A stretch of DNA of 57,026 nucleotides from the IMG/VR virus record IMGVR_UViG_3300006162_000001. One strand, 5' to 3'. Origin of the DNA: a virus. Each line of letters starts with the position of its first letter. Within the stretch, counting starts at the first letter, position 1. Below, in pieces: positions 6,002-56,473 of the stretch. The position numbers and the translations under genes are program-made. Under the pieces are notes generated by a model. It did not search any database, was not told the DNA's origin, and saw nothing but the letters and a program-made list of their open reading frames with translations.

Positions 6002-7312
6002 TTACTTCAGTAGTGCGGTATATTGTTCCAGGGTAATTTCCCCACGGTCATAGTACCCCTTCGTTATAGCCTTACACTTTTCTTCCAGGTTTTTAGGGAA
6101 TGTAATACTATTGAATTTCGCCCTGGACATAATCTGGGCTTTACCGGATCCCAGGGAATTGTCCATAATACTCACCTTCACGTTCTGAAGCTTGTCGTAT
6201 CCAGCCCGGTAAAGACTTTTGATGGTGTTGTAAGATCCTTCCGTATTCTTCAGGAAGGTGGACATGGGCACCAGACGGCCCATTTCCTTTTCATTGTGAA
6301 GCATGCGGTGAATTACGCCGTTCCAGGCGTCTTCAGGTCCCCGGTAAACATAAACCACGTCCACAGATTTACCGTCTGTTAAAAGCTGATCAATCTGCTT
6401 TTGCGCCTTTTCGTAGTTCGATAAGTTACCGTCCATTATGGCATCTGACTTCTTCCCCAGATCGGGGAATATTTTATCGATCGTGGAAGTCTTCCCAGCA
6501 CCGGATCCGCCGGCATAGAAAGAAACGTGATTATTTTCCCCTTCTTCCAGAAGTTCCTTATAAGCCCCTTTGGCCACCACGGAACTGGCTTCGTGGACAG
6601 CGGCGGCGTTCGACCCGTTATATCCCAGATCTTTGAATAATGGTCTGGCGGCGTCCGTATTGACGACATTCCCGTTTTCAGCCAGATATTCAGAAACCAG
6701 CCTGTCTTTTTCCAGAACCACCTTCAGGATGGAAGCTTCCTGAAGGGCGGCGTCAGCACCGGTCAATTCCTTATCCCTTTCGAAATTTTTGAATTCCTTC
6801 TTCTGGGCGTCAGTCATATCTTCTACTTCGTCATCAGTGATCGCCGGATGGATCTTCGGTTCCGGAAGGTCGAAGTCTTCAGCGTCCAGGGCGTTAGCGC
6901 TGGAAACTGCGTCAAAATAAGCCCCCGTGGATGGCATCATCCCGTCTTTGGCGGCGTTATATGCGAACTGTTCCCCCACGTTCGTTTCCAGGTACTTCTT
7001 AGCGTCTTCCGATGACGTGACATTCAGGTTATTTTCATCCAGGTATCTTCCGTCCACGGATTCACCGGTACAGCGGCAATTCCAGTCTATTGGCGGAAAG
7101 ATGGAATCCCCGTAATCGTCACCGATCAGGAAGACCAGCCCTTCCAGTTCAACGTGTTCCGGCCGTTCCCGGTCGTCCATCATCCCCTTATAAACCCAGT
7201 AGGGATATATATCCTTATCGGCTTGCATGTCTGTAAATTGCTGGGCGCTGACGGCCTGGCGGCGACAAGCTTCATATTCCACCCGAAGCCAGGTCTGGTT
7301 CTGCACGTCCAC
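6002..7312 (-). CDS. Head morphogenesis protein (Mu F / SPP1 gp7 family core) fused to a C-terminal zeta-toxin-like P-loop NTPase/kinase domain. This is the minimal ORF, from a GTG start
   Basis: YWVYKGMMDDRERPEHVELEGLVF...FPPIDWNCRCTG is the MuF signature. C-terminal FYAGGSGAGKTS (Walker A, 6488-6520) ...AIMDGN...GRLVP. The frame stays open upstream to 7852. Confidence 0.8.
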   Translation of the reverse strand: MDVQNQTWLRVEYEACRRQAVSAQQFTDMQADKDIYPYWVYKGMMDDRERPEHVELEGLVFLIGDDYGDSIFPPIDWNCRCTGESVDGRYLDENNLNVTSSEDAKKYLETNVGEQFAYNAAKDGMMPSTGAYFDAVSSANALDAEDFDLPEPKIHPAITDDEVEDMTDAQKKEFKNFERDKELTGADAALQEASILKVVLEKDRLVSEYLAENGNVVNTDAARPLFKDLGYNGSNAAAVHEASSVVAKGAYKELLEEGENNHVSFYAGGSGAGKTSTIDKIFPDLGKKSDAIMDGNLSNYEKAQKQIDQLLTDGKSVDVVYVYRGPEDAWNGVIHRMLHNEKEMGRLVPMSTFLKNTEGSYNTIKSLYRAGYDKLQNVKVSIMDNSLGSGKAQIMSRAKFNSITFPKNLEEKCKAITKGYYDRGEITLEQYTALLK

Positions 7313-9796: not shown

Positions 9797-10570
9797 TTAA
9801 CGGCCTACCTTCTTCACCAGGGTGACGTGAAGGTCAGCGATGATGTTCCATTCGTGCTGCATGGGATACACTTTGGCTTCCGGGCTTTTATTCTCAAAAG
9901 TGGGATCATGCCAGGCATATCCGATAAAAAAGTCAAAATCACATTTCATATTGTAGAATCCATGGGTCAGCTTGTTATCCACCCGCCACTTCTTCCAGAA
10001 ATAGAAATAAGAATCTTCGATGATGGGCGGGAACTTATGTGTCGGATCCTGGAAGAACCGGGTGGACTTACCATAAGGATGGATAAGCCGCATTTTCGCT
10101 TCGGGCTTCATAATCCGGTAACATTCGTCCATGAACTTGATACGCTGTAATCCGTCCAGGTGTTCGAAGAAATGGCTGGCGAAGACCACATCGATGGAAT
10201 CATCGGCGAAAGGATAGGGGAACTGGGTCAGGTCGTGCACCACATCCACGCTGGGCGTCTTCACGAAATCCACGCCTATCACTTTGGTCACGCCAGTGAC
10301 TTGCATGTTCGGCTCAAAGAAATCCAGACCGATCTTATTGTCACCACATCCCAGATCCAGGGCCACCAGGTCGTGGGGGATGACAGCTGTCGCCGCCGGG
10401 GGAACGGGTAAGCCGTCCAGTTCGGCCAGCATAGCCTGAAGCCGCTGGCGTTCCCTTTCTTTTGCAGAAAGGCCGCCTTCGATGACAGGGGCTATCGCCG
10501 GGGTGTTCATGGGAACTACTTTCGACTTAGCGATGACTTTTTTTTGATTTTTCACTTTTTTCTTTATCAT
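9797..10570 (-). CDS. Class I SAM-dependent methyltransferase
   Basis: Motif I VALDLGCGDNK, then VIGVDF, DVVFASHFFEHL and YRIMKPEAKM. No DPPY/NPPY DNA-MTase motif seen. Basic Lys-rich N-terminal extension. Confidence 0.8.
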   Translation of the reverse strand: MIKKKVKNQKKVIAKSKVVPMNTPAIAPVIEGGLSAKERERQRLQAMLAELDGLPVPPAATAVIPHDLVALDLGCGDNKIGLDFFEPNMQVTGVTKVIGVDFVKTPSVDVVHDLTQFPYPFADDSIDVVFASHFFEHLDGLQRIKFMDECYRIMKPEAKMRLIHPYGKSTRFFQDPTHKFPPIIEDSYFYFWKKWRVDNKLTHGFYNMKCDFDFFIGYAWHDPTFENKSPEAKVYPMQHEWNIIADLHVTLVKKVGR

Positions 10571-10582
10571 GATGTTTGTTTT

Positions 10583-11290
10583 TTACCAGATTCTTCCCGT
10601 GGCCAGATCCATGTGACCGGTCAGGGTCTTTGTCGTGCACCCAAATTTATATCCTAATTTCCCAGCATTCTCAAAAAATTTAAGATCCTGGGTGTAAGCT
10701 TCCGCACCGATCCCCGGGGTGTACTTCTGGACCGTCTGGAAGAAGGGTCTTTTCAGGTTCGGATTCTTAAACATTCCGATCCTGAAGACGTTCGCACCCA
10801 TCCCCAGACCATTGCATTCTGTCACGGCGTTCGGAACCGGCGTAAAGGGGATGAAATTCAGCGGGAAATGTTTGGGGTTGCCATAACACATCGGCTTACC
10901 CAGTTCACCCTTAGTATGGTATAATGACCCGATCACGTCATAATCGTTCATATCGGGGTATATCTTCAGAAGCCAGTCCGGCTGGACAATATTGTCGTGT
11001 TCCAGGGTGGCCATAAACTTCCACTTCGAAAGTTCGGGATGGGCCAATATCTGATCCACAGCCCAGCTGTAAGCGGCACCCACTTCCATATCCGTGACAA
11101 AGATCCGGGTGAACTTCTGGTTCATAGGGGCCATGATGTTCATCCAGTTCTGGACCACCAGGGGATGGACGCCAGTGGAATAACAGGGCATGACCAGGAT
11201 GGTGGATAAGTCTTGCCAGGATTCGTCATGGGCCACGCCATCAGGATTCTGGTACTGATAATCTTCGATGATTAATTGTGGTTTCTTCAT
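10583..11290 (-). CDS. Putative GT-A fold glycosyltransferase-like protein
   Basis: 235 aa. ATLEHDN (DxD-like position) and TQDLKFFENAGKLGY resemble GT2-type motifs. This is an eye-level similarity only. Confidence 0.4.
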   Translation of the reverse strand: MKKPQLIIEDYQYQNPDGVAHDESWQDLSTILVMPCYSTGVHPLVVQNWMNIMAPMNQKFTRIFVTDMEVGAAYSWAVDQILAHPELSKWKFMATLEHDNIVQPDWLLKIYPDMNDYDVIGSLYHTKGELGKPMCYGNPKHFPLNFIPFTPVPNAVTECNGLGMGANVFRIGMFKNPNLKRPFFQTVQKYTPGIGAEAYTQDLKFFENAGKLGYKFGCTTKTLTGHMDLATGRIW

Positions 11291-11296
11291 GTTTGT

Positions 11297-11983
11297 TTAT
11301 TTATAAGTTGCAATTATAGCATTCCATACGCCCACGGTGGACAGTACGTTCTGAAATTTCCAGGTGGTCGTAAAAGTCCCGGTGCTGCTGGCCTTGTACA
11401 AAGCTACGCCAATCCCCTGACTGAATGGTGGCCCGGATCCACTGGGCGTCACAGCACCCTGGGCGGTCAGCTGGACGAAACTATTGGACCAGCTGATCGT
11501 GGGCCTGAAGTCTGAAAAAGGCGTGGATAGATTCATCGTTCCCACGGCGATAATAATTTCGTTCGCGGCGGTGGTGGTCGGCGTGGTGCCGAAGTTCATG
11601 ACATTGCCATTCACGGAAGAATTCGTGGTAAGATTGACATTTTTATCCGCCGTGGTGTATCCGGAAAATTCGATGGCGATTAAATTCCATGGCGTATTCC
11701 CGCTGGTCGTATTTATGGTGATGGACGTTTCTGTCCCGTTCGATATTTTACTGTAAATAGACGTTTCAAGGTCCTGGACCAGCGTGGCGTCCCTGGACCA
11801 GCCGGTGGGTATCGTTAAGGTTTGTCCGGCGTTAGCGATCAGGATTAATAAGTTCCCGCTTTGGGGTGCATTGGCAAAGGTCACGGTCTGGGAAGAAGCA
11901 TCAGCCGTAGAATTTTTAATTGCGTACTGGACGAATAAACTGGGTCCAATAGACGGCCATAATATGGGTGCTGTTCCCGGCAT
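11297..11983 (-). CDS. Hypothetical protein (beta-rich, N/S/T-rich) downstream of the giant repeat protein
   Basis: 228-aa ORF with ATG start, 5 nt after the upstream stop. Confidence 0.6.
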   Translation of the reverse strand: MPGTAPILWPSIGPSLFVQYAIKNSTADASSQTVTFANAPQSGNLLILIANAGQTLTIPTGWSRDATLVQDLETSIYSKISNGTETSITINTTSGNTPWNLIAIEFSGYTTADKNVNLTTNSSVNGNVMNFGTTPTTTAANEIIIAVGTMNLSTPFSDFRPTISWSNSFVQLTAQGAVTPSGSGPPFSQGIGVALYKASSTGTFTTTWKFQNVLSTVGVWNAIIATYK

Positions 11984-11987
11984 TTAA

Positions 11988-14900
11988 TTAAAAGGTATTA
12001 CTATAAAATTGGACATGCAAATTAGCCCTTTGTGCATTGGAAGCGGAAGTCATATTGATATTTCCATTACTCATGGACGCCGGTCCCGCTGACGTGGCGG
12101 CGGTATAGATACCCTGGAATAAATAAGCCCCACCCATGTTCACGCTGGTCGCACTTCCGATCGGTGCAAAGAAACCACCGGAAGCGGCTGAATTGATCGC
12201 ATTGTTACCGAAAACGGTATAGGCCGCCCCGGTATAGGTGGAAGCGCTGGAAATCACCACGCCGATATAATAGACGCCGGGCGTGATATTCACGTTCATC
12301 GGAAGTGTCAGGGCTCTCATTCCCTGGATGACGGTATTGTTCGAAGTGGATCCGGTATGTTGTACCGTGAAGGCATTAAGTGCTGATCCTGAAGATGCCA
12401 GGGACAGTGTGGATCCGTTCAGGGTATATACGCCCATCCACAAAGAAAGATTGATCGATCCCGTAGTGGCTGACGTGTTCGTCTGGGCGGACAGGGATCC
12501 GGCGATCAGGGCCGCTGTGGCGGTGACATTATAGGGGATATAGACTTGCTGAATGCTTAAAGATCCCTGGCCTATCGTATTAAGGGACACGAAGGCGTCT
12601 TCCATGCCATCCCACCGGCTTAAAGTCGCCGGGGCGGGGAAGCCCATGGAAAGGGTGGATCCGTTCTGGACCACAGAAAGTCCCCCAGTGGCGCTTATGC
12701 TGGAAGTATTGGGCGCTGAAATCTGGATGGATCCGTTAGAATAGCCACCCGTCATCGCCCCCAGGAAGTTATAAGACAGCGTTCTGGCGTCAAAAGTGGA
12801 TGAACTGTTCTGGGTGGTGTTCCCCAGGGCGTACATTCCCACGGTCTGGTTAGACTGGGCCGGGATGGATCCTGTTATCGTGGACCCGTTAAGTCCGAAA
12901 CTGACGTTGTTACTGTTCGAAAAGACGACCGTCTGAAGGTTATTCGAAGTCGTACCGGCGGAAACATTTATGGCACCACCACCACCAGGGGCGGCGACAC
13001 TCAAAGACATGCCATTACTGTAAACCGTCCCGGATATGTTTGTCCCGCCGATTGTGGCGCTGGAATTACCCATGATCCACAGCTGGGACTGGCTTCCGGA
13101 CTGCATGGCGGTCGTCAAAGCATTGGGGGCGGAAAACTGGATAGACCCGTTAGAATAACCGATTGTCAGGGATCCGATCGCATTCAGCGAAAGGACACTG
13201 TTCGCCAGGTTAGTCGAACTGTTCTGGGTGGTATTGCCCAGGGCGTAAAGACTTACACTTTGGTTTACGGATCCGGAAATCGTCTGGCCATTGATCGTAA
13301 AGGACACGCCGTTCGCATTCGTAAACCTGGCCGTACCAGTGGATATACTATTCGCCCCATCGTAAAGGACCACGCCGCCGCCACCACCAGTCTGGGATAT
13401 CTGGATGGATCCATTACTGAATCCGACCGTGATATTCCCCACCCCATTGAATGACAGATTCGAAGCATTTAAGACGGTACTGGAATTCTGGGTGGTATTG
13501 CCCAGGGCGTAAAGCGATATGTTCTGATTGGACTGGGCCGCCACAGAAGCCGAAACGGTCTGTCCGTTTATGCTGAATGACACCCCATTAGCATTCGTGA
13601 AGCGAATGGTCCCGGTTGAAATGCTGTTCGCCCCATCATAAACGGCCTGGATATTACTTTGGGTCTGGGCCGATTGTGCCGGGTAAGAGACAGTTGCCGT
13701 CACTGTTCCCCCGTTCAGGCCGAAGGATATACTGTTCGAATTACTGAAGACGAAAGCGGACAGGTTGCTGGAAGTTGTCCCCGCTGAAAGATTGATATTA
13801 CTCAAAGTCACAGCATTGGACAGCATGGCTGTCGTCAGGGCGTTCGGGGCGCTGAACTGGATCGATCCATTGGAATAGCCTATCGTCAGGGATCCGATGG
13901 CATTTAACGATACAGCGGCGGCACCGATCACAGATGAACTGTTTTGGGTCGTATTACCCAAAGCATAGAACGAAATATTTTGATTGGACTGGGTGGGGAC
14001 AGTGTAGGATCCCGTGAGCACGGAATTCCCGGAAAGTCCGAAAGCCAGTCCATTGGAATTGGCGAAGGTGAAGGCGGAAGCATTCAGCGAAGTGGTGCCA
14101 GCTGACAGGTTAATATTGGAAATCGTCACGGCGTTCGACTGCATGGCCGTAGTCAGATAATTGGTCTGGACGGTCGCTGTCACGGTGGATCCGTTAAGAC
14201 CGAAGCTGACGCCGTTAGAATTACTGAAGACGACCTGGCCCAGCGCCATCGTAGTCGTGCCGGCCGATAAGCTTCCCGCCGCCGCCCCACCTACTGAAGC
14301 GGTGACGGTGGAACCATTCAGGCCAAAAGACACCCCATTGGAATTCGAAAAGACAAAAGCGCTCAAATTATTCGAAGTGGTCCCGGCGGACAGATTTACA
14401 GCTGTCAGGGATGTGGCGATCGATCCGGTGACAGTTGACCCGTTAAGACCGAAGGACACGTTATTCGAATTACTGAAGACAATATTCGAAAGGTTCTGGC
14501 TGGTGGTACCAGCGGAAAAATTGATATTAGTCAGACTGGTGGCGATGGAAGCCGATATCGTATTCCCGTTTATGCTGAAGGATACGTTATTGGCGTTCGT
14601 AAAGCGGATCGTCCCGGTGGATATGCTATTGGCCCCGTCATAGATCGCCTGGATATTGCTTTGGGTTTGTGCTGACTGGACAGGGACAGAAACCTGGATG
14701 GATCCATTTGAGAATCCCAGGGTCGCCGCCCCCAGTCCGTTATAAGACAGGTTGCTGGCGTTCAATACGGTGCTGCTATTTTGCGTAGTGTTCCCCAGGG
14801 CGTAAAGACTGATATTCTGGTTAGACTGGGAAAAGCTGGCTGTGACAGTGGAAATATTCAGCCCGAAACTGATACTATTGGAATTACTGAATACCACCTG

Positions 14901-16175
14901 GCCCAAAGCCATGCTGGTGGTCCCAGCTGACAGGCTACCAGCGGCGGCACCACCCACGGAAGCCGTGACAGTAGATCCGTTCAATCCGAAAGAAACGCCA
15001 TTCGAATTACTGAAGATGATGTTCGAAAGATTCTGGCTGGTAGTTCCGGCGCTGAAGTTTATGTTCGTCAGTGACGTGGCTATGCTGGCGGTGATCGTAG
15101 ATCCGTTTAATCCAAAGCTTACGCCATTGGAATTCGAATAAACCCATTTAGAAAGATTCTGGGAAGTTGTTCCCGCTGACAGGTTAATATTCGAAAGGGT
15201 GACAGCATTGGAAGCCATCGCTGTCGTCAGGTAGTTCCCGGCACTTTGAAGGGCTGTGGTGATATTTGACGCCAGCCCCCAGGTGATCGTGGATCCATTG
15301 GATGATGATGACAGGCTGGATCCGGTGGCGAAACTCATAGCCCCGGTACTTCCATTTATGCTATTGACGACCTGGTTACTTTGCGCCGCTGTGGTCAGGT
15401 AATTCGTCTGGACAGAAGCCGTCATCGTCTGGCCGTTCATCCCGAAGGACACGCCATTGGAATTGGACCAGACTACTGTCCCGGAAGTGGCCTGGGCGGC
15501 ACCAGCGCTGATCCCGCTGATCCCCGTCTGGGCGGCACCGGCATTGACGGAAGCATAAATACTTCCATTGGAATTACTGAAGGAAACGCCGTTCGTATTG
15601 ACAAAATTCAACGTCTGGAAGGCGGATGATCCACCCTGGGCGCTGAATGCCTGGTTACTTTGTGAACTAAGGAACGCCGGGAAGTTCAGGGACAGTCCGC
15701 TGGAATTGGCGGTGACGGATACGCCGTTCGCCGTCAGGGCGGTATTGGTCCCCATGAAATTACTTCCGGCATTGGAAGCCATGGCGGTCGTTAGATAGTT
15801 AGTCTGCACGGAAGCGGTCATCGTGGATCCATTCATCCCGAAGCTGACCCCATTGGAATTACTGAAGACGATCGCCGATAAATTCTGGCTGGTCGTCCCA
15901 CCGGAAACATTGATATTGGAAAGGGTGACAGCATTGGAAAGCATCGCTGTCGTTAGATAGTTCCCCTGGCTTTGGTAGTTTGTGAAGACGCTGGCGGTGA
16001 CGGTGGATCCGACATTCCCGAAGGTCACGCCGTTCGCATTGGAAAAATACCAGTTAGATCCGGCCGGACCTTGCTGTCCAATACCATTGGACACATAAAT
16101 GTTATACGCCATCGCCGGGATCAGGATATCCGTGGTCAGGTTATTATAGACTATTTCGATATTGACTTCCCCCAT
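11988..16175 (-). CDS. Giant tandem-repeat fibre-like protein (1395 aa), N/S/T/G-rich and nearly uncharged, with a non-repetitive C-terminal domain
   Basis: Dozens of about 25-30-aa units of the form AGTTSQNLSxxVFSNSNGVSFGLNGSTVTAS. A distinct C-terminal domain of about 230 aa starts near ...LSRWDGMEDAF. Confidence 0.8.
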   Translation of the reverse strand: MGEVNIEIVYNNLTTDILIPAMAYNIYVSNGIGQQGPAGSNWYFSNANGVTFGNVGSTVTASVFTNYQSQGNYLTTAMLSNAVTLSNINVSGGTTSQNLSAIVFSNSNGVSFGMNGSTMTASVQTNYLTTAMASNAGSNFMGTNTALTANGVSVTANSSGLSLNFPAFLSSQSNQAFSAQGGSSAFQTLNFVNTNGVSFSNSNGSIYASVNAGAAQTGISGISAGAAQATSGTVVWSNSNGVSFGMNGQTMTASVQTNYLTTAAQSNQVVNSINGSTGAMSFATGSSLSSSSNGSTITWGLASNITTALQSAGNYLTTAMASNAVTLSNINLSAGTTSQNLSKWVYSNSNGVSFGLNGSTITASIATSLTNINFSAGTTSQNLSNIIFSNSNGVSFGLNGSTVTASVGGAAAGSLSAGTTSMALGQVVFSNSNSISFGLNISTVTASFSQSNQNISLYALGNTTQNSSTVLNASNLSYNGLGAATLGFSNGSIQVSVPVQSAQTQSNIQAIYDGANSISTGTIRFTNANNVSFSINGNTISASIATSLTNINFSAGTTSQNLSNIVFSNSNNVSFGLNGSTVTGSIATSLTAVNLSAGTTSNNLSAFVFSNSNGVSFGLNGSTVTASVGGAAAGSLSAGTTTMALGQVVFSNSNGVSFGLNGSTVTATVQTNYLTTAMQSNAVTISNINLSAGTTSLNASAFTFANSNGLAFGLSGNSVLTGSYTVPTQSNQNISFYALGNTTQNSSSVIGAAAVSLNAIGSLTIGYSNGSIQFSAPNALTTAMLSNAVTLSNINLSAGTTSSNLSAFVFSNSNSISFGLNGGTVTATVSYPAQSAQTQSNIQAVYDGANSISTGTIRFTNANGVSFSINGQTVSASVAAQSNQNISLYALGNTTQNSSTVLNASNLSFNGVGNITVGFSNGSIQISQTGGGGGVVLYDGANSISTGTARFTNANGVSFTINGQTISGSVNQSVSLYALGNTTQNSSTNLANSVLSLNAIGSLTIGYSNGSIQFSAPNALTTAMQSGSQSQLWIMGNSSATIGGTNISGTVYSNGMSLSVAAPGGGGAINVSAGTTSNNLQTVVFSNSNNVSFGLNGSTITGSIPAQSNQTVGMYALGNTTQNSSSTFDARTLSYNFLGAMTGGYSNGSIQISAPNTSSISATGGLSVVQNGSTLSMGFPAPATLSRWDGMEDAFVSLNTIGQGSLSIQQVYIPYNVTATAALIAGSLSAQTNTSATTGSINLSLWMGVYTLNGSTLSLASSGSALNAFTVQHTGSTSNNTVIQGMRALTLPMNVNITPGVYYIGVVISSASTYTGAAYTVFGNNAINSAASGGFFAPIGSATSVNMGGAYLFQGIYTAATSAGPASMSNGNINMTSASNAQRANLHVQFYSNTF
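12700..16060 (-). repeat. Intragenic tandem and higher-order coding repeats of the 1395-aa protein (approximate bounds)
   Basis: Long segments recur nearly verbatim, e.g. SIATSLTNINFSAGTTSQNLSNI, VGGAAAGSLSAGTT.MALGQVVFSNSN, QSNQNISLYALGNTTQNSSTVLNASNLS, SAQTQSNIQA.YDGANSISTGTIRFTNAN and LNAIGSLTIGYSNGSIQFSAPNALTTAM, each at least twice. Confidence 0.8.
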
Positions 16176-16176
16176 C

Positions 16177-16557
16177 TTATGGCGTTGTGACTGATTTAGT
16201 TACAAACATTTTCCCGTAAATCGGCGTGATGATCGTTCCATTTGCATCCGTTTCCTGAAGTTCGTAGTAATAATTCCCCCCGGGAATGGTCAGTTCTTTG
16301 GAAACATTCACGACATTATGCCCGGTGCCGGTGACGGTGATGGATCCGTCCCCAGTCGAAGCTGTCCAGTCTGGGGATGTGGGTGGGGTAGTTTCAACAA
16401 GTGATTTTCGGACAGTAAGAAGGAAGGTGGAAGTGTTTTTCGCTATGGGGTTTCCAGTCCCATCTGTGAAGGTTAATTGAAGCGCAAAGGTATTATCACT
16501 GTAAGCCAAGATATCATAATTCGCACCGGCTATCGTGTTTAACTGGGGAACTGGCAT
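16177..16557 (-). CDS. Hypothetical protein (beta-sandwich-like)
   Basis: 126-aa ORF with ATG start, directly upstream of the giant repeat gene. Confidence 0.55.
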   Translation of the reverse strand: MPVPQLNTIAGANYDILAYSDNTFALQLTFTDGTGNPIAKNTSTFLLTVRKSLVETTPPTSPDWTASTGDGSITVTGTGHNVVNVSKELTIPGGNYYYELQETDANGTIITPIYGKMFVTKSVTTP

Positions 16558-19885: not shown

Positions 19886-20959
19886 TTACATGCTTAAATC
19901 GTCTTCGTTCCTGACGTGGAAATATTGGCGGCACTGGTCACGCAAAAGCCGCATTCTTTCCGATCCGTCATCGTGAAGGATGATGACCCCCTGGGTGGAA
20001 TATTTCACGTCCGTCAGGGGATTATACCAGTTATCCTTCAGGATCACTTCCCGCTTCCCGTACCGGCGGTCTTTGAAGCTTCCATGGAAATAATGGACGG
20101 CCGTCTGTTCCATGACGCCCATATTCTTCCGCCACGCCTTCAGGGCTATATCTTGCCAGTTAAGAAGCTGGCGGCGGAATTCAGCCCCGTATTCCGGCGG
20201 GATGGCCTGTTCCATGAATCCGATGATCCCGGCCGCCTGATACCAGTCAGCGCTTCCCAGGATACAGAAATCGATGTTCCCACCCACTTCTTCCAGTTCC
20301 TTACGCCGGTAAGCCCAGGCCCCGCCGGGTGGTCCCCAGTCATCGCTGGCTTTACCCCCTTCGTTCTGGTATTGCTGGTCACGGTAAGCCAGATCCACAG
20401 CTGGAAGGAAAGCCCGGGGCTTTTCAAATATTTTGTTGCTGATCTTTTTGCCATGGGAACTGAAATCCAGGCCGTGAAGCCACCGGGACGCGAAAGACAT
20501 TCTGGTGTTTATCACCTGGCCGTAGGGGCCCAGATAGGTCACCTGGTTAAACATTTGAATGACCGGATAGTGCTGAAGCTTATGAAGACAGTTATCCACC
20601 CAGTTCGGATCCAGGAAGTGGAAGTCAGCGTCAGAAAAACAAACATATTCCCAGTCTGGCGGAAGGTATTGCATCCCCAGGTTCATGGCGTTTTCCTTTG
20701 TCCAGATTTCTGAACTGGTCCGGCGCTGGACGATGATGTGATTTTCATTATAGGGTTCTTTGATCACGAATTCCCGTTCCCCGAAGGCGTATTCCACCGT
20801 CACCAGGACAGCCCCGGAATCGATCACATGCTTTTCGAAGGCGAAGTAAGTGTTCCACCTGGACAAAAAGCGGACCTGGTTTATGATGGCGGTGATGACG
20901 TAAAGCTTTTTGTTTATTTTGTCAGGCTTCTGAAAGGGAATCCGGGTCTGAATGGACAT
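19886..20959 (-). CDS. Putative glycosyltransferase (GT-A / GT2-like)
   Basis: 357 aa. N-terminal Rossmann-like YVITAIINQ..., DxD-like CFSDADFHF. Confidence 0.5.
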   Translation of the reverse strand: MSIQTRIPFQKPDKINKKLYVITAIINQVRFLSRWNTYFAFEKHVIDSGAVLVTVEYAFGEREFVIKEPYNENHIIVQRRTSSEIWTKENAMNLGMQYLPPDWEYVCFSDADFHFLDPNWVDNCLHKLQHYPVIQMFNQVTYLGPYGQVINTRMSFASRWLHGLDFSSHGKKISNKIFEKPRAFLPAVDLAYRDQQYQNEGGKASDDWGPPGGAWAYRRKELEEVGGNIDFCILGSADWYQAAGIIGFMEQAIPPEYGAEFRRQLLNWQDIALKAWRKNMGVMEQTAVHYFHGSFKDRRYGKREVILKDNWYNPLTDVKYSTQGVIILHDDGSERMRLLRDQCRQYFHVRNEDDLSM

Positions 20960-22260: not shown

Positions 22261-22857
22261 TTAATCGATATTTCCCGGATCGATCCGGCTTGTTGGTGAA
22301 GTCATGATATGATAAGTCGGGAAATTTTTGCTTTTTTTATATTTCGCCCCACATAACATCATGTTATGGATCAATTCGAAATCGTGGCCATATTCCGGAA
22401 GTCTTTCTGGCATCTGCTTTAAGAATTCCGTCCGGATGATCACGGCATTATCCCCGATATATCCCCACTTCAGCTTGTAATTCTTCCTTTCCCCCAGGAC
22501 AAAGGAATCGAAGTACACAAAGTCCAGATCCGTCCCTTCGATCGCTGACAGGTAGTTTTCGATGTGGTGTAGTTCGACCAGGTCATCATTAGCCAGGAAC
22601 ATGAAATAAGTGCCGGTGGCGGCCTGGATGGACAGGTTCGTGATCTGGTATCCCCAGAATCCGCCATTCTTCCGCTGGTTCCAGGCTAAGATCCGGGGAT
22701 CCTTCAGAAGTTCGGCATGGCGGTCGAAGTAGGGACAGTTATCCCCCACGATGAAAGCTTCCCAGTCCTTTTCCGTCTGGTTCAGAAGACAGCGGATCAT
22801 TCGCTGGGTCCGTTCCGGGCGAAGGTAAACAGGCATTGAAAGGGTGACTTTTGGCAT
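22261..22857 (-). CDS. Family 2 glycosyltransferase (short, soluble)
   Basis: VTLSMPVYLRPERTQRMIRCLLNQTEKDWEAFIVGDNCP and FMFLANDD are typical GT2 N-terminal and DxD motifs. Confidence 0.75.
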   Translation of the reverse strand: MPKVTLSMPVYLRPERTQRMIRCLLNQTEKDWEAFIVGDNCPYFDRHAELLKDPRILAWNQRKNGGFWGYQITNLSIQAATGTYFMFLANDDLVELHHIENYLSAIEGTDLDFVYFDSFVLGERKNYKLKWGYIGDNAVIIRTEFLKQMPERLPEYGHDFELIHNMMLCGAKYKKSKNFPTYHIMTSPTSRIDPGNID

Positions 22858-23106
22858 TTATTCGTCTTTGGTAAACTGAATGTAAGCGATGGAAATAAGT
22901 ACCAGGAACAGGCCGCCGATCATCAGCACATAAACCCACCAGGGATAAGCGACCGCGGCCCCGCCATCCGGATAGACTTCGAAGTCACCCACCCCCAGCG
23001 CCATGGCGATCTGGCCCGTGATGATCATCAGGACCCCGGCGATTCCAGCCCACTGGAACGCCTTAAAAACAATATACTTTTCGGCAAGGGATTCATCTAT
23101 TTTCAT
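22858..23106 (-). CDS. Small membrane protein (2 TM)
   Basis: Hydrophobic segments WAGIAGVLMIITGQIAMALGV and WWVYVLMIGGLFLVLISIAYI. Abuts the GT2 start. Confidence 0.6.
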   Translation of the reverse strand: MKIDESLAEKYIVFKAFQWAGIAGVLMIITGQIAMALGVGDFEVYPDGGAAVAYPWWVYVLMIGGLFLVLISIAYIQFTKDE

Positions 23107-23660
23107 AAGCTTTCCCGCATGTTTATGGTGTAAGTTTCGTAATTCGGGTGCTTCTTATTGGCACCCAGTTCCCTGGCCGGATTCCCCACGTAAACCTTAT
23201 AAGGTTCGGTGACCAGCTTTTTGGTGACGATGGCACCCATCCCGATCATGACGCCGGTGGCGACCCTTTGCTTTTGGTGGATGATGGCCCCCAGGCCGAT
23301 GTTCGCGTCACCTTCCACGACCGTGTGGCCGCCGATGATAGCATGACAGGAAAGGGTCACCAGGTCCCCGATCCGGGCATCATGGCCGATATGGACACCC
23401 TTCATGATATAGCATTCATTTTCGATCCAGGTCATCCCGTCAGCGCCGGAATCGATCGTGACGTGGCCGGTGATCACATTATTCCAGCCGATCTTTACAT
23501 TCCCGAACTGGCGATCCCTTCCACGCCATTCGGCCGGTGCCCCGATAATACAGAAGGGCCCGATCCGGTTGCCTTCGCCGATCACCACGCCTGGATAGAT
23601 CACGGCCGTTTCATGAATGTCGTTTCCCGGATACCGGTCATTATTGCTTAATGTCGTCAT
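23103..23660 (-). CDS. LpxA-like left-handed beta-helix (hexapeptide) acyltransferase lacking the LpxA C-terminal helical domain
   Basis: IHETAVIYPGVVIGEGNRIGPFCIIGAPAE and VHIGHDARIGDLVTLSCHAIIGGHTVVEGDANIGLGAIIHQ parallel E. coli LpxA [26 protein letters not shown] and AHIAHDCTVGN. 185 aa, compared with about 260 for LpxA. Confidence 0.7.
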   Translation of the reverse strand: MTTLSNNDRYPGNDIHETAVIYPGVVIGEGNRIGPFCIIGAPAEWRGRDRQFGNVKIGWNNVITGHVTIDSGADGMTWIENECYIMKGVHIGHDARIGDLVTLSCHAIIGGHTVVEGDANIGLGAIIHQKQRVATGVMIGMGAIVTKKLVTEPYKVYVGNPARELGANKKHPNYETYTINMRESL

Positions 23661-35706: not shown

Positions 35707-36246
35707 TCATTGAATTACGATCGGACTTTTTGTGTTCCCATTGGTCGAATCCCCGTTATTATAATAAGTCGTCACCACGTTTCCCCGGATCACCGTCCCC
35801 GTGGCCACCCGCTGGGGGATCACCGGACAGACCGGACATATCACCGGCGGCGGACAGGATGGACATACCCTGGGGATCGTATCGTGAATCGTCACTGTGG
35901 TGGTCACGTACACCGTATCGTGGACAGCTATCCCCACCGTAAATCCCACGGTATCGGAAGCCTGGACACCGGCGGAATTGGCCACTACCACCTTAAAAAT
36001 ATAAAAGCCCAGCTGAAGACCGGAAACGGTCGCCTGACTGGTGGAAGGATTCGTGATTGTCTGAAGCCCCGGGCCGGAAACTTTCGTCCAGGAATAAGTG
36101 ATCGGAAGACAGGTGGAATCGCACGCCACAGCCACCAAAGTGTCGGAAGTCTTTGTCGTGACCACACTGGAAGCCACAGCCCGGACCACGGGGCCCGGAC
36201 TGGATAAAGTCATCAGGGAAAGTAATATCGTGATCAGCTTCGTCAC
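35707..36246 (-). CDS. Secreted PKD-like domain protein with a Cys/Pro-rich segment (GTG start)
   Basis: Signal-like TKLITILLSLMTLSS. ITYSWTKVSGPGLQTITNPSTSQATVSGLQLGFYIFKVVVANSAG (PKD-like). CPSCPPPVICPVCPVIP. Confidence 0.6.
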   Translation of the reverse strand: MTKLITILLSLMTLSSPGPVVRAVASSVVTTKTSDTLVAVACDSTCLPITYSWTKVSGPGLQTITNPSTSQATVSGLQLGFYIFKVVVANSAGVQASDTVGFTVGIAVHDTVYVTTTVTIHDTIPRVCPSCPPPVICPVCPVIPQRVATGTVIRGNVVTTYYNNGDSTNGNTKSPIVIQ

Positions 36247-39200
36247 GGGACCTTTTTGGTGTATTTGATGAACGGTGAACAGATACAGGGCGGCGGATAG
36301 TTCGGAAGCTGGATGGGCCCGATATCCGGCGGCGTCCTGATTATAGCGTTCAGAATGTCTTTGGTGGCGTAAGGATTGGTCACCCCGGCATTAAGCAGAT
36401 AGACACTTTTTACCGTGGGGGCGTAGGTGGAAAAAGACCCTTGCGTGTTCTGGACCATGGCCGAAGCGCTGTCCAGCGCCAGGCTGGTGGCGTAGGCGGC
36501 GGCGACATTCTTTGACGTATCGTGGTTCCAGGATCCGCCAGACGTATCGTAGGCGATCTGTGGCTTCCCGTTCGTCTGGTTATTCACGGCGAAATTGTTC
36601 TTTATCTCCACGTCAAAGCTGTTCGTGTAGTTTATTTTCACCAGCGGCGACCAGTATCCACAGCATTCCTTCGCGTTTATCAGCGAATTGTTCCAGATAT
36701 GGATGGCGTTCCCGGTACTGATCCCGGTTTTTATATAATTCGTGTCGATGTGGGTATCCACCAGGCCGAAGCCGGTACTGTTCACCTTTTCGCAGAAAGT
36801 GATATAAGTATCCCTGGCGTTCCCCGCTTCGGAATTGTTCCATATTTTAAGCAGATAGCCCGGTCCACCATTTTTATAGATCCTGGTGAAGACACCGTTC
36901 CCGCCATTGATTGTAAACAGGCCGATATCCCCGGAAGGCGGCCGCTGGGAATTCAGGGTCACCTTAATGTCGTGGAAGTTGTTCCGGAAGGATATCCCTG
37001 TAAATTCATTCCCTTCGAAGGTATTGGTCCCGCTGGAATAGGTGGAATCCACCAGCCAGTTATAAAATACCAGGCTGTCATCCACGTCAGGCGGGTGACC
37101 GGCACCCTGGCCCAGCGTTCCGGTGGATCCTTTGATCAGCCCCCGGGAATTGTGTTCTATAATATCGTGAATCGTCACCTGTTCCCAGTGGTAGGTATTC
37201 AGGACGCCATGGTTCCAGGCCATCCCCCCACTTTGGTCGATCGATTTCGTGGCCGTGTCGTTCGTGAATTTCAGATATTGAAGGGTCACCTGATACCAGC
37301 CCTGGCCAGCTGTACCGGTATTATTATTGATCATGGAAGTGTTCACCCCGTTCCCGTTGAACGTGATCCAGTTGCCGCCAGCTGTACCGGTGAAGGTCAT
37401 CCCGGAATCGGCGAACATGCTGACCTGGCCGGTGAAGGTCACCACGCCGTTCGTCTTATTGCGGACATAGATCCCTTTCAGGTTCGAAAAGCTTCCACAG
37501 TTGTAAGTCCCGGCCAGAATATTGGCGGTGTCCAGCGGATTATGTCCTGTCATGGACGTGATCGTGGGACAGCCGGAAACCAGGGGAACGTCAAAGTTCT
37601 GTGGTGCCCCGGGATTGGTAGTGGAAAAGATCACATCCACCCAGTAGTTCGAAGCCTGGTAATAAGCCGTAGGGAAGGCGGTCGTAGCGGTGTAAATATA
37701 AACGCCGTTCGGGGTCGTGGGTGAAGCATCAGCCAGGCCCGTCAGGTTCCCGTTTACGATGGCGGTGGCGAATCCGTTATTCGTAGCGACATAGTATCCG
37801 GCGGCGCTGTAATAAGTCGCCACGTAGGTCGTATTGGCCAGGATGGCCACAGGGGTGGTAAAGGTCAGGCTTTGCCATCCGGTCGCCGTTTCCCCGGAAT
37901 AGACGCCGGTGGCCAGTAAAGTCCCTGTATTGGTATAGAGTTCACCCACATGGGTTCCCGTGTTCCCGGAAGTCTTATAAAAGCGGACACCCGTTATCCA
38001 TCCGGCGATCGATGACTGGAAGCGGACACCTGTTTCAAGTCCCTGTCCATCGTTCAGGGTTCCCCCAGCTGGCGTCTGGGTGGTGAAGATATTGGCGAAG
38101 ACAGGGGGTGCCGGGTTGACGGTGATCTGGACGGTGGCGGTACTTACCCCGGCATTTACGGCCAGCTGGAAGACATAGATCCCCTGGATAAGTCCATTAA
38201 CGACCGTAGTCACCCCCGTGGGTGTGACGATCGTGGGGGTATTGGGACCACTGACCTGGGTCCACAGATAGCTGGTGATCGTCCCGGAAGATCCGGATCC
38301 GTTCAGCGTGACGGAATTCGTGGGAAGGGTGATCGTCTGGTTAGATCCCGCATTGGCGACCGGGCCGCTGTTCGGGGCCACGACCACACTACTGGCCAGA
38401 AGATAAGATCCATCGGCGTTCCTTCCTGAAATAGCCAGGGGAACCGGGGATTCATATCCCAGCGAATCGGTGACGACCATATAAAGCCCATAGATTCCGG
38501 CGCTGACGCCGGTCAATAGTTTGGTATCGGTGACGGTGGAATCCACCCCGCCGTTAAGGAATCCCTTCAGGTTGAAATAGGATGAATCTTGCCAGACGAC
38601 TGTCCCGCCGCCGGTCCGAAGCTGGAAGTTTATGTAATAGCGCCCATAAATGGGGGCCACGCCGCTGTTCTTCCAGTTCAGTGATGTGGTGAAGGATCCA
38701 CCGGCGATCGGTGATGTGGTATAATAACCGGTATCCACCGTCAGCCGGTATCCCATCTGCTTTGAAGCGGCGGTCAGGTTTGCGATCGTGGTCGGATCCG
38801 TGACATAACTTCCGTAGTTGTAATTCCTGAAGAAAGAATATCCGTAAAGACTGATTTCCCGGGACATGTCGCCATAAGGCTGACTTCCATTCAGCGGTTC
38901 ACCCCCGATCGGGGCGTATAAATACCGGGCCATGATCAGGTACTTAAAATTATGTACACTGTCGCCTGGATTATATGACCAGCTGTTATTCACCAGCATG
39001 TAATCGCTTCCGGAATTACCCATGTCATCCCTGTTCCATCCCAGTAATCCCCAGGCATTCTTATAGGTCAGGGCGTAATAAGTTGCGGACGCCGGCATAA
39101 AGGTCGCCCCATCCCCATCGAAGGCGGCGATCCCGATCAGGCATGGCCATTTATAAAAGGTATTCCCGGCGATATTGATCAGGGTGTCCAGTGTGGCCGC

Positions 39201-56373: not shown

Positions 56374-56473
56374 GATCAAGTAAAATTATATTGGATTATC
56401 TGGATTTTTGCCAGACTGTTCACGGATAGTCAGTGTATTGTCATAAATGGTATATTCGCATAACCTTTTTTGA

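What the first reader, a model, noticed from the sequence alone, without database searches (positions are those of the whole stretch)
11988..16175. A 1395-aa, almost charge-free N/S/T/G tandem-repeat protein lies between terminase and portal
- About 1100 residues consist of 25-30-aa units such as AGTTSQNLSxxVFSNSNGVSFGLNGSTVTAS.
- These units are organised into higher-order duplications. Blocks of 30-60 aa recur nearly verbatim, for example SIATSLTNINFSAGTTSQNLSNI..., VGGAAAGSLSAGTT.MALGQVVFSNSN... and SAQTQSNIQA.YDGANSISTGTIRFTNAN....
- Across the repeat region D, E, K and R are nearly absent. I saw only scattered D in YDGAN, R in IRFTNAN and one K.
- N-x-S/T tripeptides (NLS, NGS, NSS, NIS, NVS, NTT...) occur dozens of times.
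- A distinct C-terminal domain of about 230 aa follows, starting near LSRWDGMEDAF.
- The position is unusual for a fibre. It sits right after terL and a 126-aa beta-sandwich-like ORF and before the portal, away from the baseplate and fibre block at 40-46 kb.
- It could be a head fibre, a beta-solenoid adhesin or a heavily modified glycoprotein.
- The near-identical DNA repeats also make the gene prone to recombinational length variation and to assembly collapse.
Basis: partly seen in the sequence, partly recalled or inferred. Interest (0 to 1): 0.7.

Follow-up and report, generated by a model that had tools for sequence, protein, structure and literature searches.

The report
Uncharged phage fibre with dedicated glycosylation enzymes
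The 1395-residue, almost charge-free repeat protein is real, and it is the variable part of a widespread, undescribed three-gene cassette (fibre, glycosyltransferase, methyltransferase) found in many uncultured phages and in Patescibacteria chromosomes, most likely a virion fibre that the phage glycosylates itself.

Summary
**Observation.** Confirmed, with two corrections.
- The ORF 11988-16175 (-) encodes 1395 aa, only 18 of them D/E/K/R.
- The repeats are a 35-aa core on a 42-aa period (16-17 copies), a 46-aa unit (5 copies) and a linker (7 copies), not 25-30-aa units.
- A conserved 211-aa C-terminal beta-sandwich follows.
- The DNA repeats are not near-identical: 60-77% identity, longest exact repeat 29 nt. 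The CDS is base-for-base identical in four other contigs. The assembly-collapse concern fails.

**New finding.** Two ORFs downstream always travel with this protein family: a GT-A glycosyltransferase (10583-11290) and a SAM methyltransferase (9797-10570).
- Both enzymes are present in 63 of 72 fibre-anchored loci; 8 of the other 9 are cut off.
- The methyltransferase is present in 79 of 80 enzyme-anchored loci, with an uncharged N/S/T-rich ORF beside it wherever upstream DNA exists.
- No other gene is conserved.
- In phages the cassette sits among head genes.
- The same three-gene core occurs in Patescibacteria chromosomes beside cell-surface genes.

**Best reading** (confidence about 0.45). 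This is an accessory virion fibre, probably trimeric and nucleated by a jelly-roll C-terminal domain. It is probably glycosylated in the cytoplasm, with the sugar then methylated. Glycosylation, trimer state and virion location are inferred, not shown.

The parts
11988..16175 (-). Gene for the 1395-aa, 1.3%-charged repeat protein, the proposed virion fibre and glycosylation substrate
   Evidence: ORF and composition. More than 1400 homologues, all of them low in charge. The CDS is identical in 4 other contigs.
16095..16175 (-). N-terminal 27 residues before the repeats, followed by a GIGQQGPAG stretch; proposed virion-attachment end
   Evidence: N-termini of homologues fall into several unrelated classes. 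Some are collagen-like and some match tail-fibre PHROGs. The attachment role is inferred.
12696..16094 (-). Repeat shaft, residues 28-1160: 16-17 copies of the core INLSAGTTSQNLSxxVFSNSNGVSFGLNGSTVTAS, 5 copies of a 46-aa unit, and 7 YLTTAM linkers
   Evidence: HMM mapping of the units and 126-nt spacing. AlphaFold2 places a hairpin VSFGLN-gs-TVTASV in each core, at low confidence.
11991..12623 (-). Conserved C-terminal domain, residues 1185-1395: a beta-sandwich (jelly-roll-like); proposed trimerisation or ligand-binding knob
   Evidence: Block-mean pLDDT mostly 70-96. Weak Foldseek matches to cyanophage A4 capsid chain 9jwb_Z, Pgp3, phage central-fibre tips and TNF-family proteins. Conserved motifs GIYTLNGSTLSL, MRxLTVPM, TPGxYW and GQGxYTA. 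Matches 508 clusters at 50% identity (E<=1e-3); C-terminal in nearly all of the 150 best hits.
10583..11290 (-). 235-aa GT-A fold glycosyltransferase, always linked to the fibre family
   Evidence: AlphaFold2 pLDDT 90. Foldseek best hit is STIV A197 (E 1e-9), followed by COLGALT1, LH3, ppGalNAc-T2/T7, SpsA and mimivirus R699. E97, D99, D202 and H226 are invariant. Weak Pfam Glycos_transf_2 hit. Linkage shown.
9797..10570 (-). 257-aa class I SAM-dependent methyltransferase, next to the glycosyltransferase in nearly all loci
   Evidence: Pfam Methyltransf_11 at 39 bits against a cut-off of 21.2. Present in 79 of 80 glycosyltransferase-anchored phage loci and in 63 of 72 fibre-anchored loci.
11297..11983 (-). 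228-aa low-charge ORF (7.5% D/E/K/R) between the fibre and the glycosyltransferase; role unknown, not part of the conserved core
   Evidence: No family hit. Unrelated to the C-terminal domain. Matches part of a 1962-aa low-charge protein in L162. Not conserved in related loci.
16177..16557 (-). 126-aa Ig-like ORF (phrog_1084) ending 1 nt before the fibre start codon; possible accessory or decoration protein
   Evidence: phrog_1084 at E 6.5e-10 and weak Big_1/PKD hits. The same PHROG flanks the cassette in 5 other phage loci.
9304..9786 (-). 160-aa ORF of unknown function between the methyltransferase and the portal; same operon, not conserved with the cassette
   Evidence: ORF. No hits. Absent from related loci.

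Best explanation
**What it is.** The gene encodes a long accessory virion fibre. It forms a functional cassette with the glycosyltransferase and methyltransferase two and three ORFs downstream.

**Proposed steps**
1. The whole terS-terL-126-fibre-228-GT-MT-160-portal block is packed with gaps of 1-45 nt on one strand. It is therefore probably co-expressed late with the head genes. The spacing is shown; the expression timing is inferred.
2. The conserved C-terminal jelly-roll domain folds and nucleates oligomerisation, probably as a trimer. The N/S/T/G-rich beta-hairpin repeats then assemble into a shaft. This step is inferred.
3. The soluble GT-A enzyme adds sugar to exposed Ser/Thr (or Asn) of the fibre in the cytoplasm, and the methyltransferase then methylates the sugar. 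None of the three proteins shows an obvious N-terminal signal sequence or membrane anchor by eye; no predictor was run. The enzyme folds and the genetic linkage are shown. The substrate and the chemistry are inferred.
4. The short, lineage-specific N-terminus anchors the fibre to the particle, probably at the head or neck. This step is inferred from synteny.
5. The result would be an electrically neutral, glycan-coated filament. It could serve reversible adhesion to polysaccharide surfaces or shield the particle. The function is a guess.
For: **The fibre family is real and uniformly low in charge**
- More than 1400 homologues were found, and all 120 best contain 1.2-7.3% D/E/K/R.
- In related loci the background median for ORFs is 22%.

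**Fibre-like architecture**
- Each repeat core is predicted as a beta-hairpin, with poor confidence as a monomer (pLDDT about 50). The C-terminal domain is confident.
- That domain weakly resembles trimeric jelly-rolls: cyanophage A4 capsid chain 9jwb_Z, probably the trimeric CBM cement protein gp25 of PMC12002296; chlamydial Pgp3; phage central-fibre tips; and TNF-family proteins.
- N-termini are modular. Some are collagen-like and some match tail-fibre PHROGs.

**Linkage of the three genes**
- Homologues of both enzymes lie on the same strand within about 0-8 kb of the C-terminal-domain ORF in 63 of 72 loci. Eight of the nine exceptions end within 170 nt of that ORF.
- In the reverse direction, the methyltransferase is present in 79 of 80 glycosyltransferase-anchored loci. 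A low-charge N/S/T/G/A-rich ORF is present in 71 of 80. The remaining nine are truncated upstream or have a C-terminal-domain hit.
- terL, portal and the 126-, 228- and 160-aa ORFs are not conserved with the cassette.

**Enzyme identities**
- The 235-aa protein has a GT-A fold with an invariant ExD...H pattern. Several of its best structural matches glycosylate proteins: COLGALT1, LH3 and ppGalNAc-transferases.
- The 257-aa protein matches Methyltransf_11 above the Pfam cut-off.

**Position in phage genomes**
- Neighbours of the cassette in about 40 phage loci include P22-type coat (5), Mu gpT (2), portals (7), SU10 adaptor (3), head closure (2) and scaffold (2). No sheath, tube, tape-measure or baseplate family is among the top families listed.
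- An uncultured podovirus in GenBank has the cassette beside its capsid gene and three further glycosyltransferases.
Against: - There is no direct evidence that the fibre is glycosylated, that it is in the virion, or that it is a trimer.
- The fold matches of the C-terminal domain are weak: E 3e-4 to 0.1, and TM-scores normalised to the target of 0.2-0.43.
- The shaft fold is not resolved.
- Some relatives carry N-terminal modules shared with proteins annotated as tail fibres, so a head location is not secure.
- The same three-gene core sits in Patescibacteria chromosomes among cellular and cell-surface genes, with no phage hallmark genes among the top families listed. The family is therefore not intrinsically a virion component.
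- The methyltransferase could act on the protein rather than on a sugar. Its closest solved relative (3dli) is uncharacterised.
- No cultured phage carries the cassette, so there are no proteomic data.
Confidence: 0.45

Rival explanations
1. It is a cell-surface module rather than a virion part. The phage expresses the fibre-like protein and its two enzymes to remodel or decorate the infected cell's surface, for example for adhesion, superinfection exclusion or symbiosis. This would mirror the chromosomal version in Patescibacteria.
For: - The same three-gene core lies in closed Patescibacteria chromosomes (OY970358, OY970354, OY969928 and others). It is flanked there by housekeeping genes and by surface proteins: WxLIP_PGBD, Big_13, cohesin/dockerin and Fn3.
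- One chromosomal homologue (in L171) has an N-terminal membrane anchor.
- Papers on Patescibacteria phages report cell-surface-modification genes as auxiliary genes (PMC12911398).
Against: - The window protein and most phage or Saccharibacteria versions show no obvious signal peptide by eye.
- In phages the cassette sits inside the late head and packaging block.
- N-terminal modules of relatives match virion-fibre families.
- Only the three-gene core is shared with the chromosomal islands, not their surface-anchoring partners.
Confidence: 0.2
2. It is an ordinary, unmodified tail fibre or receptor-binding protein. The neighbouring glycosyltransferase and methyltransferase serve another purpose, such as modifying host surface polysaccharide or phage DNA, and are linked only by co-inheritance.
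For: - N-terminal modules of some relatives match PHROGs annotated 'tail fiber protein'.
- Foldseek matches of the C-terminal domain include the tips of lambda gpJ and of mycobacteriophage central fibres.
- The window also encodes other glycan enzymes that are not adjacent to the fibre.
Against: - The linkage holds in both directions across more than 100 non-redundant loci that otherwise share no genes, including bacterial chromosomes. That is hard to explain without a shared function.
- The C-terminal domain is conserved rather than hypervariable, unlike typical receptor-binding tips.
- This phage has a separate baseplate and fibre block at 36-46 kb.
Confidence: 0.2
3. It is a monomeric beta-solenoid adhesin. 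The repeats would stack as coils of a single-chain beta-helix rather than forming an oligomeric fibre.
For: - The repeats are regular and rich in N, S, T and G, with Asn/Gly turns.
- One BFVD match is named 'Parallel beta-helix repeat'.
Against: - AlphaFold2, which usually models single-chain solenoids well, gave isolated hairpins at pLDDT about 50.
- The C-terminal domain resembles trimeric jelly-rolls.
- Some relatives have collagen-like, and therefore trimeric, N-terminal stretches.
Confidence: 0.1
4. The repeat array is an assembly artefact, or an unstable and collapsed repeat.
For: None beyond the repetitiveness at the protein level.
Against: - The DNA repeats are mostly 60-77% identical and the longest exact repeat is 29 nt.
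- The CDS shows 0 of 4188 mismatches in contigs from three pipelines.
- The 90%-identity cluster has a single member sequence, so no length variants are known.
Confidence: 0.01

Closest known systems
BclA-type exosporium glycoproteins of Bacillus (recalled from my own knowledge, not checked here)
   Same: - A long low-complexity shaft ends in a C-terminal C1q/TNF-like jelly-roll that nucleates a trimer.
- The shaft is O-glycosylated with methylated sugars by enzymes encoded nearby.
- Some relatives of the window protein even begin with collagen-like GXY runs.
   Different: - The shaft here is made of beta-hairpin N/S/T/G repeats, not a collagen triple helix.
- The resemblance of the C-terminal domain is at fold level only, and weak.
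- The protein is encoded by phages and has no obvious secretion signal by eye.
- No sequence homology was detected.
Virion glycosylation in mycobacteriophages (Freeman et al. 2023, as cited in PMC12619734)
   Same: Phage-encoded glycosyltransferases modify the phage's own structural proteins in the cytoplasm.
   Different: - There the substrates are C-terminal extensions of the capsid and tail-tube subunits, not a dedicated fibre.
- I could not read that paper, so I cannot say whether a methyltransferase is involved.
- No cultured phage carries the present cassette.
Viral GT-A glycosyltransferases: STIV A197, mimivirus R699, and chlorovirus A064R with its methyltransferase domain (A064R recalled from my own knowledge)
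   Same: - The 235-aa enzyme's best structural match is STIV A197 (E 1e-9, TM 0.69), and R699 is also matched.
- A064R is a precedent for a virus pairing glycosyltransferase and sugar-methyltransferase activities to decorate a structural protein.
   Different: - Sequence identity is only 9-18%.
- Acceptor and donor substrates are unknown here.
- The methyltransferase is a separate gene.
Glycosylated repeat adhesins with a dedicated cytoplasmic glycosyltransferase: AIDA-I/Aah, TibA/TibC, HMW1/HMW1C (recalled from my own knowledge)
   Same: A long repetitive beta-rich adhesin is encoded next to an enzyme that glycosylates it in the cytoplasm.
   Different: - Those enzymes belong to other families (heptosyltransferases, GT41).
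- Those adhesins have signal peptides and outer-membrane translocators. Here no signal peptide is evident by eye, and the C-terminal domain is a beta-sandwich rather than a barrel.
Capsid-attached trimeric proteins: cyanophage A4 gp25, and phi29 head fibres (the latter recalled from my own knowledge)
   Same: - The best PDB match of the C-terminal domain is chain Z of the cyanophage A4 capsid entry (9jwb). By its length this is probably gp25, a trimeric carbohydrate-binding-module protein on the capsid threefold axes (PMC12002296).
- The gene lies in the head module.
   Different: - gp25 is a short cement protein with no shaft.
- The match is weak (E 2.6e-4, TM 0.43).
- The chain-to-gp25 assignment rests on length and context only.

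Membership tests
GT-A fold glycosyltransferases (for the 235-aa ORF 10583-11290) | Single Rossmann-like alpha/beta/alpha domain of the GT-A type | tested here: met
   The AlphaFold2 model has pLDDT 90.3. Foldseek finds 207 PDB matches at E<=1e-3, and the top 50 listed are essentially all glycosyltransferases, led by STIV A197 at E 1.1e-9 and TM 0.69.
GT-A fold glycosyltransferases (for the 235-aa ORF 10583-11290) | Acidic DxD-type metal and nucleotide-sugar binding motif, with a C-terminal metal ligand | tested here: inconclusive
   E97-x-D99 (LEHDN), D202 and H226 are invariant in 39 family members. Their placement in the active site was not checked by superposition.
GT-A fold glycosyltransferases (for the 235-aa ORF 10583-11290) | Significant match to a curated glycosyltransferase sequence family | tested here: not met
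   Pfam Glycos_transf_2 scores only E 0.072 and 13.5 bits against a cut-off of 23.3. NCBIfam gives no hit. One UniRef name, 'Glyco_tranf_GTA_type', is attached to a homologue.
Class I SAM-dependent methyltransferases (for the 257-aa ORF 9797-10570) | Match to the Methyltransf_11 domain above the curated cut-off | tested here: met
   39 bits against a cut-off of 21.2, E 1.3e-9. Also phrog_6636 'methyltransferase' at E 1.7e-10.
TNF/C1q-like trimeric jelly-roll domains (for residues 1185-1395) | Jelly-roll beta-sandwich fold similar to TNF/C1q family members | tested here: inconclusive
   The beta-sandwich is confident. Matches to Pgp3 have E 3.5e-4, while TNF, FasL, 4-1BBL and the BC2L-C lectin score only E 0.03-0.1 with target-normalised TM 0.24-0.30.
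TNF/C1q-like trimeric jelly-roll domains (for residues 1185-1395) | Assembly as a homotrimer | not testable with these tools
   Only monomer prediction was available.
Type V autotransporter adhesins | N-terminal signal peptide and a C-terminal outer-membrane beta-barrel | tested here: not met
   The N-terminus MGEVNIEIVYNNLTTD... has no hydrophobic leader by eye. The C-terminal domain is modelled as a beta-sandwich whose matches are jelly-rolls, not barrels. No Pfam autotransporter hit.
Collagen-like phage or spore fibres | Runs of Gly-X-Y triplets | tested here: not met
   The window protein contains only GIGQQGPAG. GXY runs do occur at the N-termini of relatives P0023 and P0026.
Described phage tail-fibre or head-fibre families (Pfam, PHROGs, PDB) | Sequence match of the window protein to a described family | tested here: not met
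   No significant hit in Pfam, PHROGs, NCBIfam, PADLOC or PDB sequences, and no tblastn match in 50,697 phage records. Only the N-terminal modules of some relatives match 'tail fiber protein' PHROGs.

The most novel reading that the evidence does not exclude
The fibre, glycosyltransferase and methyltransferase form an ancient, horizontally mobile 'self-glycosylating neutral filament' cassette. It is shared between the cell surfaces of Patescibacteria (ultrasmall episymbiotic bacteria) and the virions of phages infecting several phyla. Its defining near-absence of charge, combined with a methyl-capped glycan coat, would make a new class of non-ionic adhesive or stealth filament. Phages carrying it would display a copy of a bacterial surface structure.
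Probability: 0.2. Interest if true: 0.85.

Novelty: new variant of a known kind. Interest (0 to 1): 0.68.

Why it matters
- **Scale.** If the reading is right, hundreds of uncultured phages build a long, uncharged, sugar-coated filament with their own enzymes. IMG/VR alone holds 358 loci with the enzyme. Known self-glycosylation of bacteriophage virions is, to my knowledge, essentially limited to mycobacteriophage capsid and tail-tube proteins.
- **Annotation.** The obligatory three-gene linkage gives a functional lead for more than a thousand 'hypothetical' proteins in each of three families.
- **Testability.** Co-expressing the three genes in E. coli and measuring the fibre's mass would test the idea directly.
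- **Link to Patescibacteria.** The same core sits in Patescibacteria chromosomes next to peptidoglycan-binding surface proteins. This ties phage fibres to the poorly understood surfaces of these episymbionts. It may also supply a marker of gene exchange between them and phages.
- **Protein chemistry.** A natural 1395-residue protein with 1.3% charged residues, in a family that is uniformly low in charge, is an unusual case for studies of folding and solubility.

Tried and rejected
- **Family and sequence searches on the 1395-aa protein.** Pfam, PHROGs, NCBIfam and PADLOC gave nothing significant. PDB sequence search gave nothing. tblastn against 50,697 phage records gave nothing, probably because of low-complexity filtering, since a 599-aa homologue does exist in MW202524.
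- **Single-sequence locus search.** A search with the C-terminal domain alone found no related loci. An alignment was needed.
- **Shaft structure.** AlphaFold2 on residues 396-1395 did not resolve the shaft. The BFVD fold search returned only generic elongated models.
- **228-aa ORF.** I tested whether it is a second copy of the C-terminal domain. It is not (hhalign probability 0.1).
- **Glycosyltransferase profile against PDB sequences.** This gave only a non-significant hit to STIV A197 (E 1.8). The fold search then confirmed that lead.
- **Autotransporter idea.** The protein ends in ...NTF, which suggested an outer-membrane beta-signal. I rejected this: there is no obvious signal peptide and the C-terminal fold is a sandwich.
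- **N-glycosylation sequon idea.** Downgraded: 68 observed against 51 +/- 5.5 expected, with the NGS of the repeat core on the predicted hairpin turn.
- **Literature.** Searches for charge-free phage proteins, glycosylated head fibres and Patescibacteria surface modules found no description of this cassette. Freeman et al. 2023 could not be read.
- **Self-BLAST.** My first self-BLAST script returned no off-diagonal hits. I replaced it with a diagonal scan.

Full report
**1. The observation**

Composition:
- D7, E3, K1, R7, H2 and no Cys, which is 1.3% D/E/K/R.
- Only 12 charged residues lie in residues 1-1184.
- S 17.5%, N 12.6%, T 11.7%, G 11.3% and A 10.7%.

Repeat units:
It is a 35-aa core, INLSAGTTSQNLSxxVFSNSNGVSFGLNGSTVTAS, on a 42-aa (126-nt) period. 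There are 16-17 strong copies.
- A second 46-aa unit, SNQNISLYALGNTTQNSS...GFSNGSIQxS, occurs five times.
- A linker, VQTNYLTTAMxSNAVTLSN, occurs seven times.
- Higher-order duplication is real. Residues 308-448 and 529-669 are 75% identical over 141 aa.

N-x-S/T occurs 68 times against 51 +/- 5.5 in shuffles, a modest excess. The NGS of the repeat core sits on the turn of the predicted hairpin VSFGLN-gs-TVTASV.

The C-terminal domain starts at residue 1185 and is 211 aa long.

**2. The DNA repeats are old and diverged**

- Tandem Repeats Finder reports nothing relevant.
- Direct-repeat families are mostly 60-77% identical.
- The 141-aa duplicate is only 61% identical in DNA. Identical residues use the same codon only 27% of the time. 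The longest exact repeat in the gene is 29 nt.
- The repeats are therefore maintained at the protein level and are poor substrates for recombination or assembly collapse.
- The CDS has 0 of 4188 mismatches in contigs produced by JGI, by two ENA assemblies and by Logan. These may derive from overlapping read sets, but they come from different assemblers.
- The 90%-identity cluster has one member sequence, so no length variants are on record.

**3. The family**

- The protein has more than 1400 relatives in metagenomes, at 30-48% identity and 770-2280 aa. None is named.
- All 120 best hits are low in charge, 1.2-7.3% D/E/K/R.
- The C-terminal domain is conserved and terminal in most of them. Its motifs are GIYTLNGSTLSL, MRxLTVPM, TPGxYW and GQGxYTA.
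- On its own this domain finds 508 clusters at 50% identity. It sits at the C-terminus in nearly all of the 150 best hits, in proteins of 91-2127 aa.
- N-termini fall into several unrelated classes. Two are collagen-like (P0023, P0026). Three of ten tested match PHROGs annotated 'tail fiber protein'.
- A variable N-terminus, a repeat shaft of variable length and a constant C-terminal domain make up the modular plan of a fibre.

**4. Structure**

- AlphaFold2 on residues 396-1395 with 70 homologues gave a mean pLDDT of 58.
- Each repeat core is a beta-hairpin at low confidence (about 50). This is what one expects if the shaft exists only as an oligomer, but it proves nothing.
- The C-terminal domain is a beta-sandwich with block-mean pLDDT mostly 70-96.
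- Its PDB matches are weak, E 3e-4 to 0.1, but consistent in kind:
  - cyanophage A4 capsid chain 9jwb_Z, which by length is probably gp25, a trimeric carbohydrate-binding cement protein on the capsid threefold axes (PMC12002296);
  - chlamydial Pgp3;
  - the tips of the Bxb1, Douge and lambda central fibres;
  - TNF-family ligands and the BC2L-C lectin.
- I read it as a jelly-roll, probably trimeric. The trimer state is untested.

**5. The key finding: a three-gene cassette**

I anchored on the C-terminal domain and examined 69 IMG/VR loci, two metagenome loci and one GenBank record.
- Homologues of both the 235-aa ORF (10583-11290) and the methyltransferase (9797-10570) lie on the same strand in 63 of 72 loci.
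- They are usually 0-8 kb downstream and next to each other, in that order.
- Eight of the nine exceptions end within 170 nt of the fibre gene.
- terL, portal and the 126-, 228- and 160-aa ORFs are not conserved with them.

I then anchored on the 235-aa protein, which has 358 IMG/VR loci, and analysed 80 of them.
- The methyltransferase is present in 79 of 80.
- A low-charge (<8% D/E/K/R) N/S/T/G/A-rich ORF lies on the same strand in 71 of 80, mostly directly upstream.
- The other nine are truncated upstream or have a C-terminal-domain hit.
- The background median charge of ORFs in these loci is 22%.
- Some partners are only 200-340 aa, essentially the C-terminal domain alone. That domain, rather than the shaft, is therefore the constant partner of the enzymes.

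**6. The enzymes**

- The 235-aa family is tightly conserved: more than 1000 members, 50-70% identical, about 240 aa.
- Its model is confident, with pLDDT 90, and has a GT-A glycosyltransferase fold.
- The best PDB match is the archaeal-virus enzyme STIV A197 (E 1e-9, TM 0.69).
- Next come collagen galactosyltransferase COLGALT1, the LH3 glycosyltransferase domain, polypeptide GalNAc-transferases, RmlT, SpsA and mimivirus R699.
- E97, D99, D202 and H226 are invariant, as expected for an ExD...H metal site.
- Sequence-family evidence alone is sub-threshold (Pfam E 0.07).
- The 257-aa protein is a Methyltransf_11 class I SAM enzyme. Its nearest solved relative is uncharacterised.
- By eye, none of the three proteins has a signal peptide or membrane segment, so any modification would be cytoplasmic.

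**7. Where the cassette sits**

- In the window, everything from terS to portal is on one strand with gaps of 1-45 nt. Pseudanabaena phage Pan5, which has the closest cultured terL (43%), goes straight from terL to portal.
- Among 150 genes flanking the cassette in about 40 non-redundant phage loci, the recurrent families are head genes: P22 coat (5), Mu gpT (2), portals (7), SU10 adaptor (3), head closure (2) and scaffold (2).
- phrog_1084, the family of the window's 126-aa Ig-like ORF, also recurs (5).
- Sheath, tube, tape-measure and baseplate families do not appear among the top families listed.
- In a 399-kb contig and a 70-kb contig the fibre follows the capsid gene.
- In the GenBank podovirus MW202524 a 599-aa homologue lies between the capsid gene and the tail genes, with three further glycosyltransferases.
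- The window phage has a separate contractile-tail and fibre block.
- This favours a head or neck accessory fibre, but only by synteny.

**8. An unexpected second home**

- Scanning one genome per species with the glycosyltransferase profile gave 118 hits. The best 80 are mostly Patescibacteria (Saccharimonadia, Paceibacteria and others). They include closed chromosomes of 0.8-1.3 Mb.
- The C-terminal-domain protein, the glycosyltransferase and the methyltransferase are together there too.
- In seven chromosomal loci the surroundings are of two kinds:
  - cellular genes, including phosphoglycerate kinase, pyruvate kinase, RF-1, peptidyl-tRNA hydrolase and FtsX;
  - surface proteins, including Big_13, WxLIP_PGBD, cohesin/dockerin and Fn3.
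- No capsid, portal or terminase family appears among the top families listed. Those lists are truncated, so rare hits cannot be excluded.
- Only the three-gene core is shared with phage loci. Glycosyltransferase identity between the two settings reaches 78%.
- The cassette is therefore mobile between Patescibacteria and phages. It is not intrinsically a virion component.
- The window phage itself looks more like a Bacteroidota phage:
  - only 4 of 77 genes have a Shine-Dalgarno-like motif;
  - the leaders are 42% A;
  - its closest glycosyltransferase and methyltransferase (67% and 61%) are on a short contig binned as Bacteroidia.

**9. Interpretation**

What is shown:
- a real, strongly conserved, nearly uncharged repeat protein with a conserved C-terminal beta-sandwich;
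- a GT-A enzyme and a SAM methyltransferase linked to it essentially without exception;
- a position in the head-gene region of phages.

What is inferred:
- the fibre is the enzymes' substrate (my estimate 0.55);
- it is part of the virion (0.7);
- it is a trimer;
- it is attached to the head or neck.

The main rivals are a cell-surface module expressed in the infected cell, and an unmodified tail fibre with unrelated neighbouring enzymes. Neither explains the bidirectional linkage and the late-operon position as well as the main reading does. Neither is excluded.

**10. Comparison and novelty**

The closest analogues work alike but are not relatives:
- BclA-type spore filaments, which combine a low-complexity shaft, a C1q-like C-terminal trimer and methylated O-glycans;
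- mycobacteriophage virion glycosylation;
- chlorovirus and mimivirus self-glycosylation;
- glycosylated autotransporter adhesins.

No described family matches the fibre. No cultured phage carries the cassette. The literature searches found no description of it. I rate it a new variant of a known kind, namely viral self-glycosylation of a structural protein. It has an unusual uncharged substrate family and an unexpected link to Patescibacteria.

Noticed in passing
window 6002-7312 (-): A 436-aa protein combines an N-terminal Phage_Mu_F head-morphogenesis domain with a C-terminal Zeta_toxin kinase-like domain. It lies just after the Mu-type portal (also called in L002).
   Followed up: no
window 53833-56379 (-): An 848-aa ORF has a weak N-terminal Peptidase_S78 prohead-protease match, and Pfam recognises no separate major capsid gene. 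It may be a protease-scaffold-capsid fusion.
   Followed up: no
window 19886-20959, 22261-22857, 23103-23660 (all -): The phage encodes further glycan-related genes away from the cassette. These are a GT2 glycosyltransferase (198 aa), a hexapeptide-repeat acyltransferase (185 aa), and a 357-aa ORF with a DAD-type motif but no family hit.
   Followed up: partly
whole window (77 called genes): Only 4 of 77 genes have a Shine-Dalgarno-like motif, and the 20 nt before start codons are 42% A. This pattern is typical of Bacteroidota. The closest glycosyltransferase and methyltransferase are on a contig binned as Bacteroidia (L158).
   Followed up: partly
L169, L171, L180, L193, L196, L230, L236 (Patescibacteria chromosomes or large contigs): Conserved islands of 10-14 kb hold the three-gene core together with several other low-charge proteins (up to 1588 aa), a WxLIP_PGBD peptidoglycan-binding protein and Ig-like proteins. 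They may encode an uncharacterised cell-surface structure of these bacteria.
   Followed up: partly
L160-L163, L165, L166, L207 (contigs binned as Gammaproteobacteria, Pseudomonadales or Daviesbacteria): Two or three tandem paralogues of about 370 aa carrying the C-terminal domain sit directly upstream of the glycosyltransferase. In some of these loci a low-charge protein of 1300-1960 aa follows the methyltransferase.
   Followed up: no
window 11297-11983 (-): The 228-aa ORF between the fibre and the glycosyltransferase is itself low in charge (7.5%). It matches part of a 1962-aa low-charge protein in L162 and is unrelated to the fibre's C-terminal domain.
   Followed up: partly
window 36243-39878 (-): A 1211-aa protein in the tail region carries DUF4832, a PKD-like Ig domain and DUF4082. 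It is probably the real tail fibre or receptor-binding protein of this phage.
   Followed up: no
window 9797-10570 (-): The methyltransferase ORF is 257 aa, against 170-200 aa in most relatives. Its first ~65 residues, which open with a Lys-rich stretch, precede the Pfam methyltransferase domain (from about residue 66), so the true start may lie further downstream.
   Followed up: no
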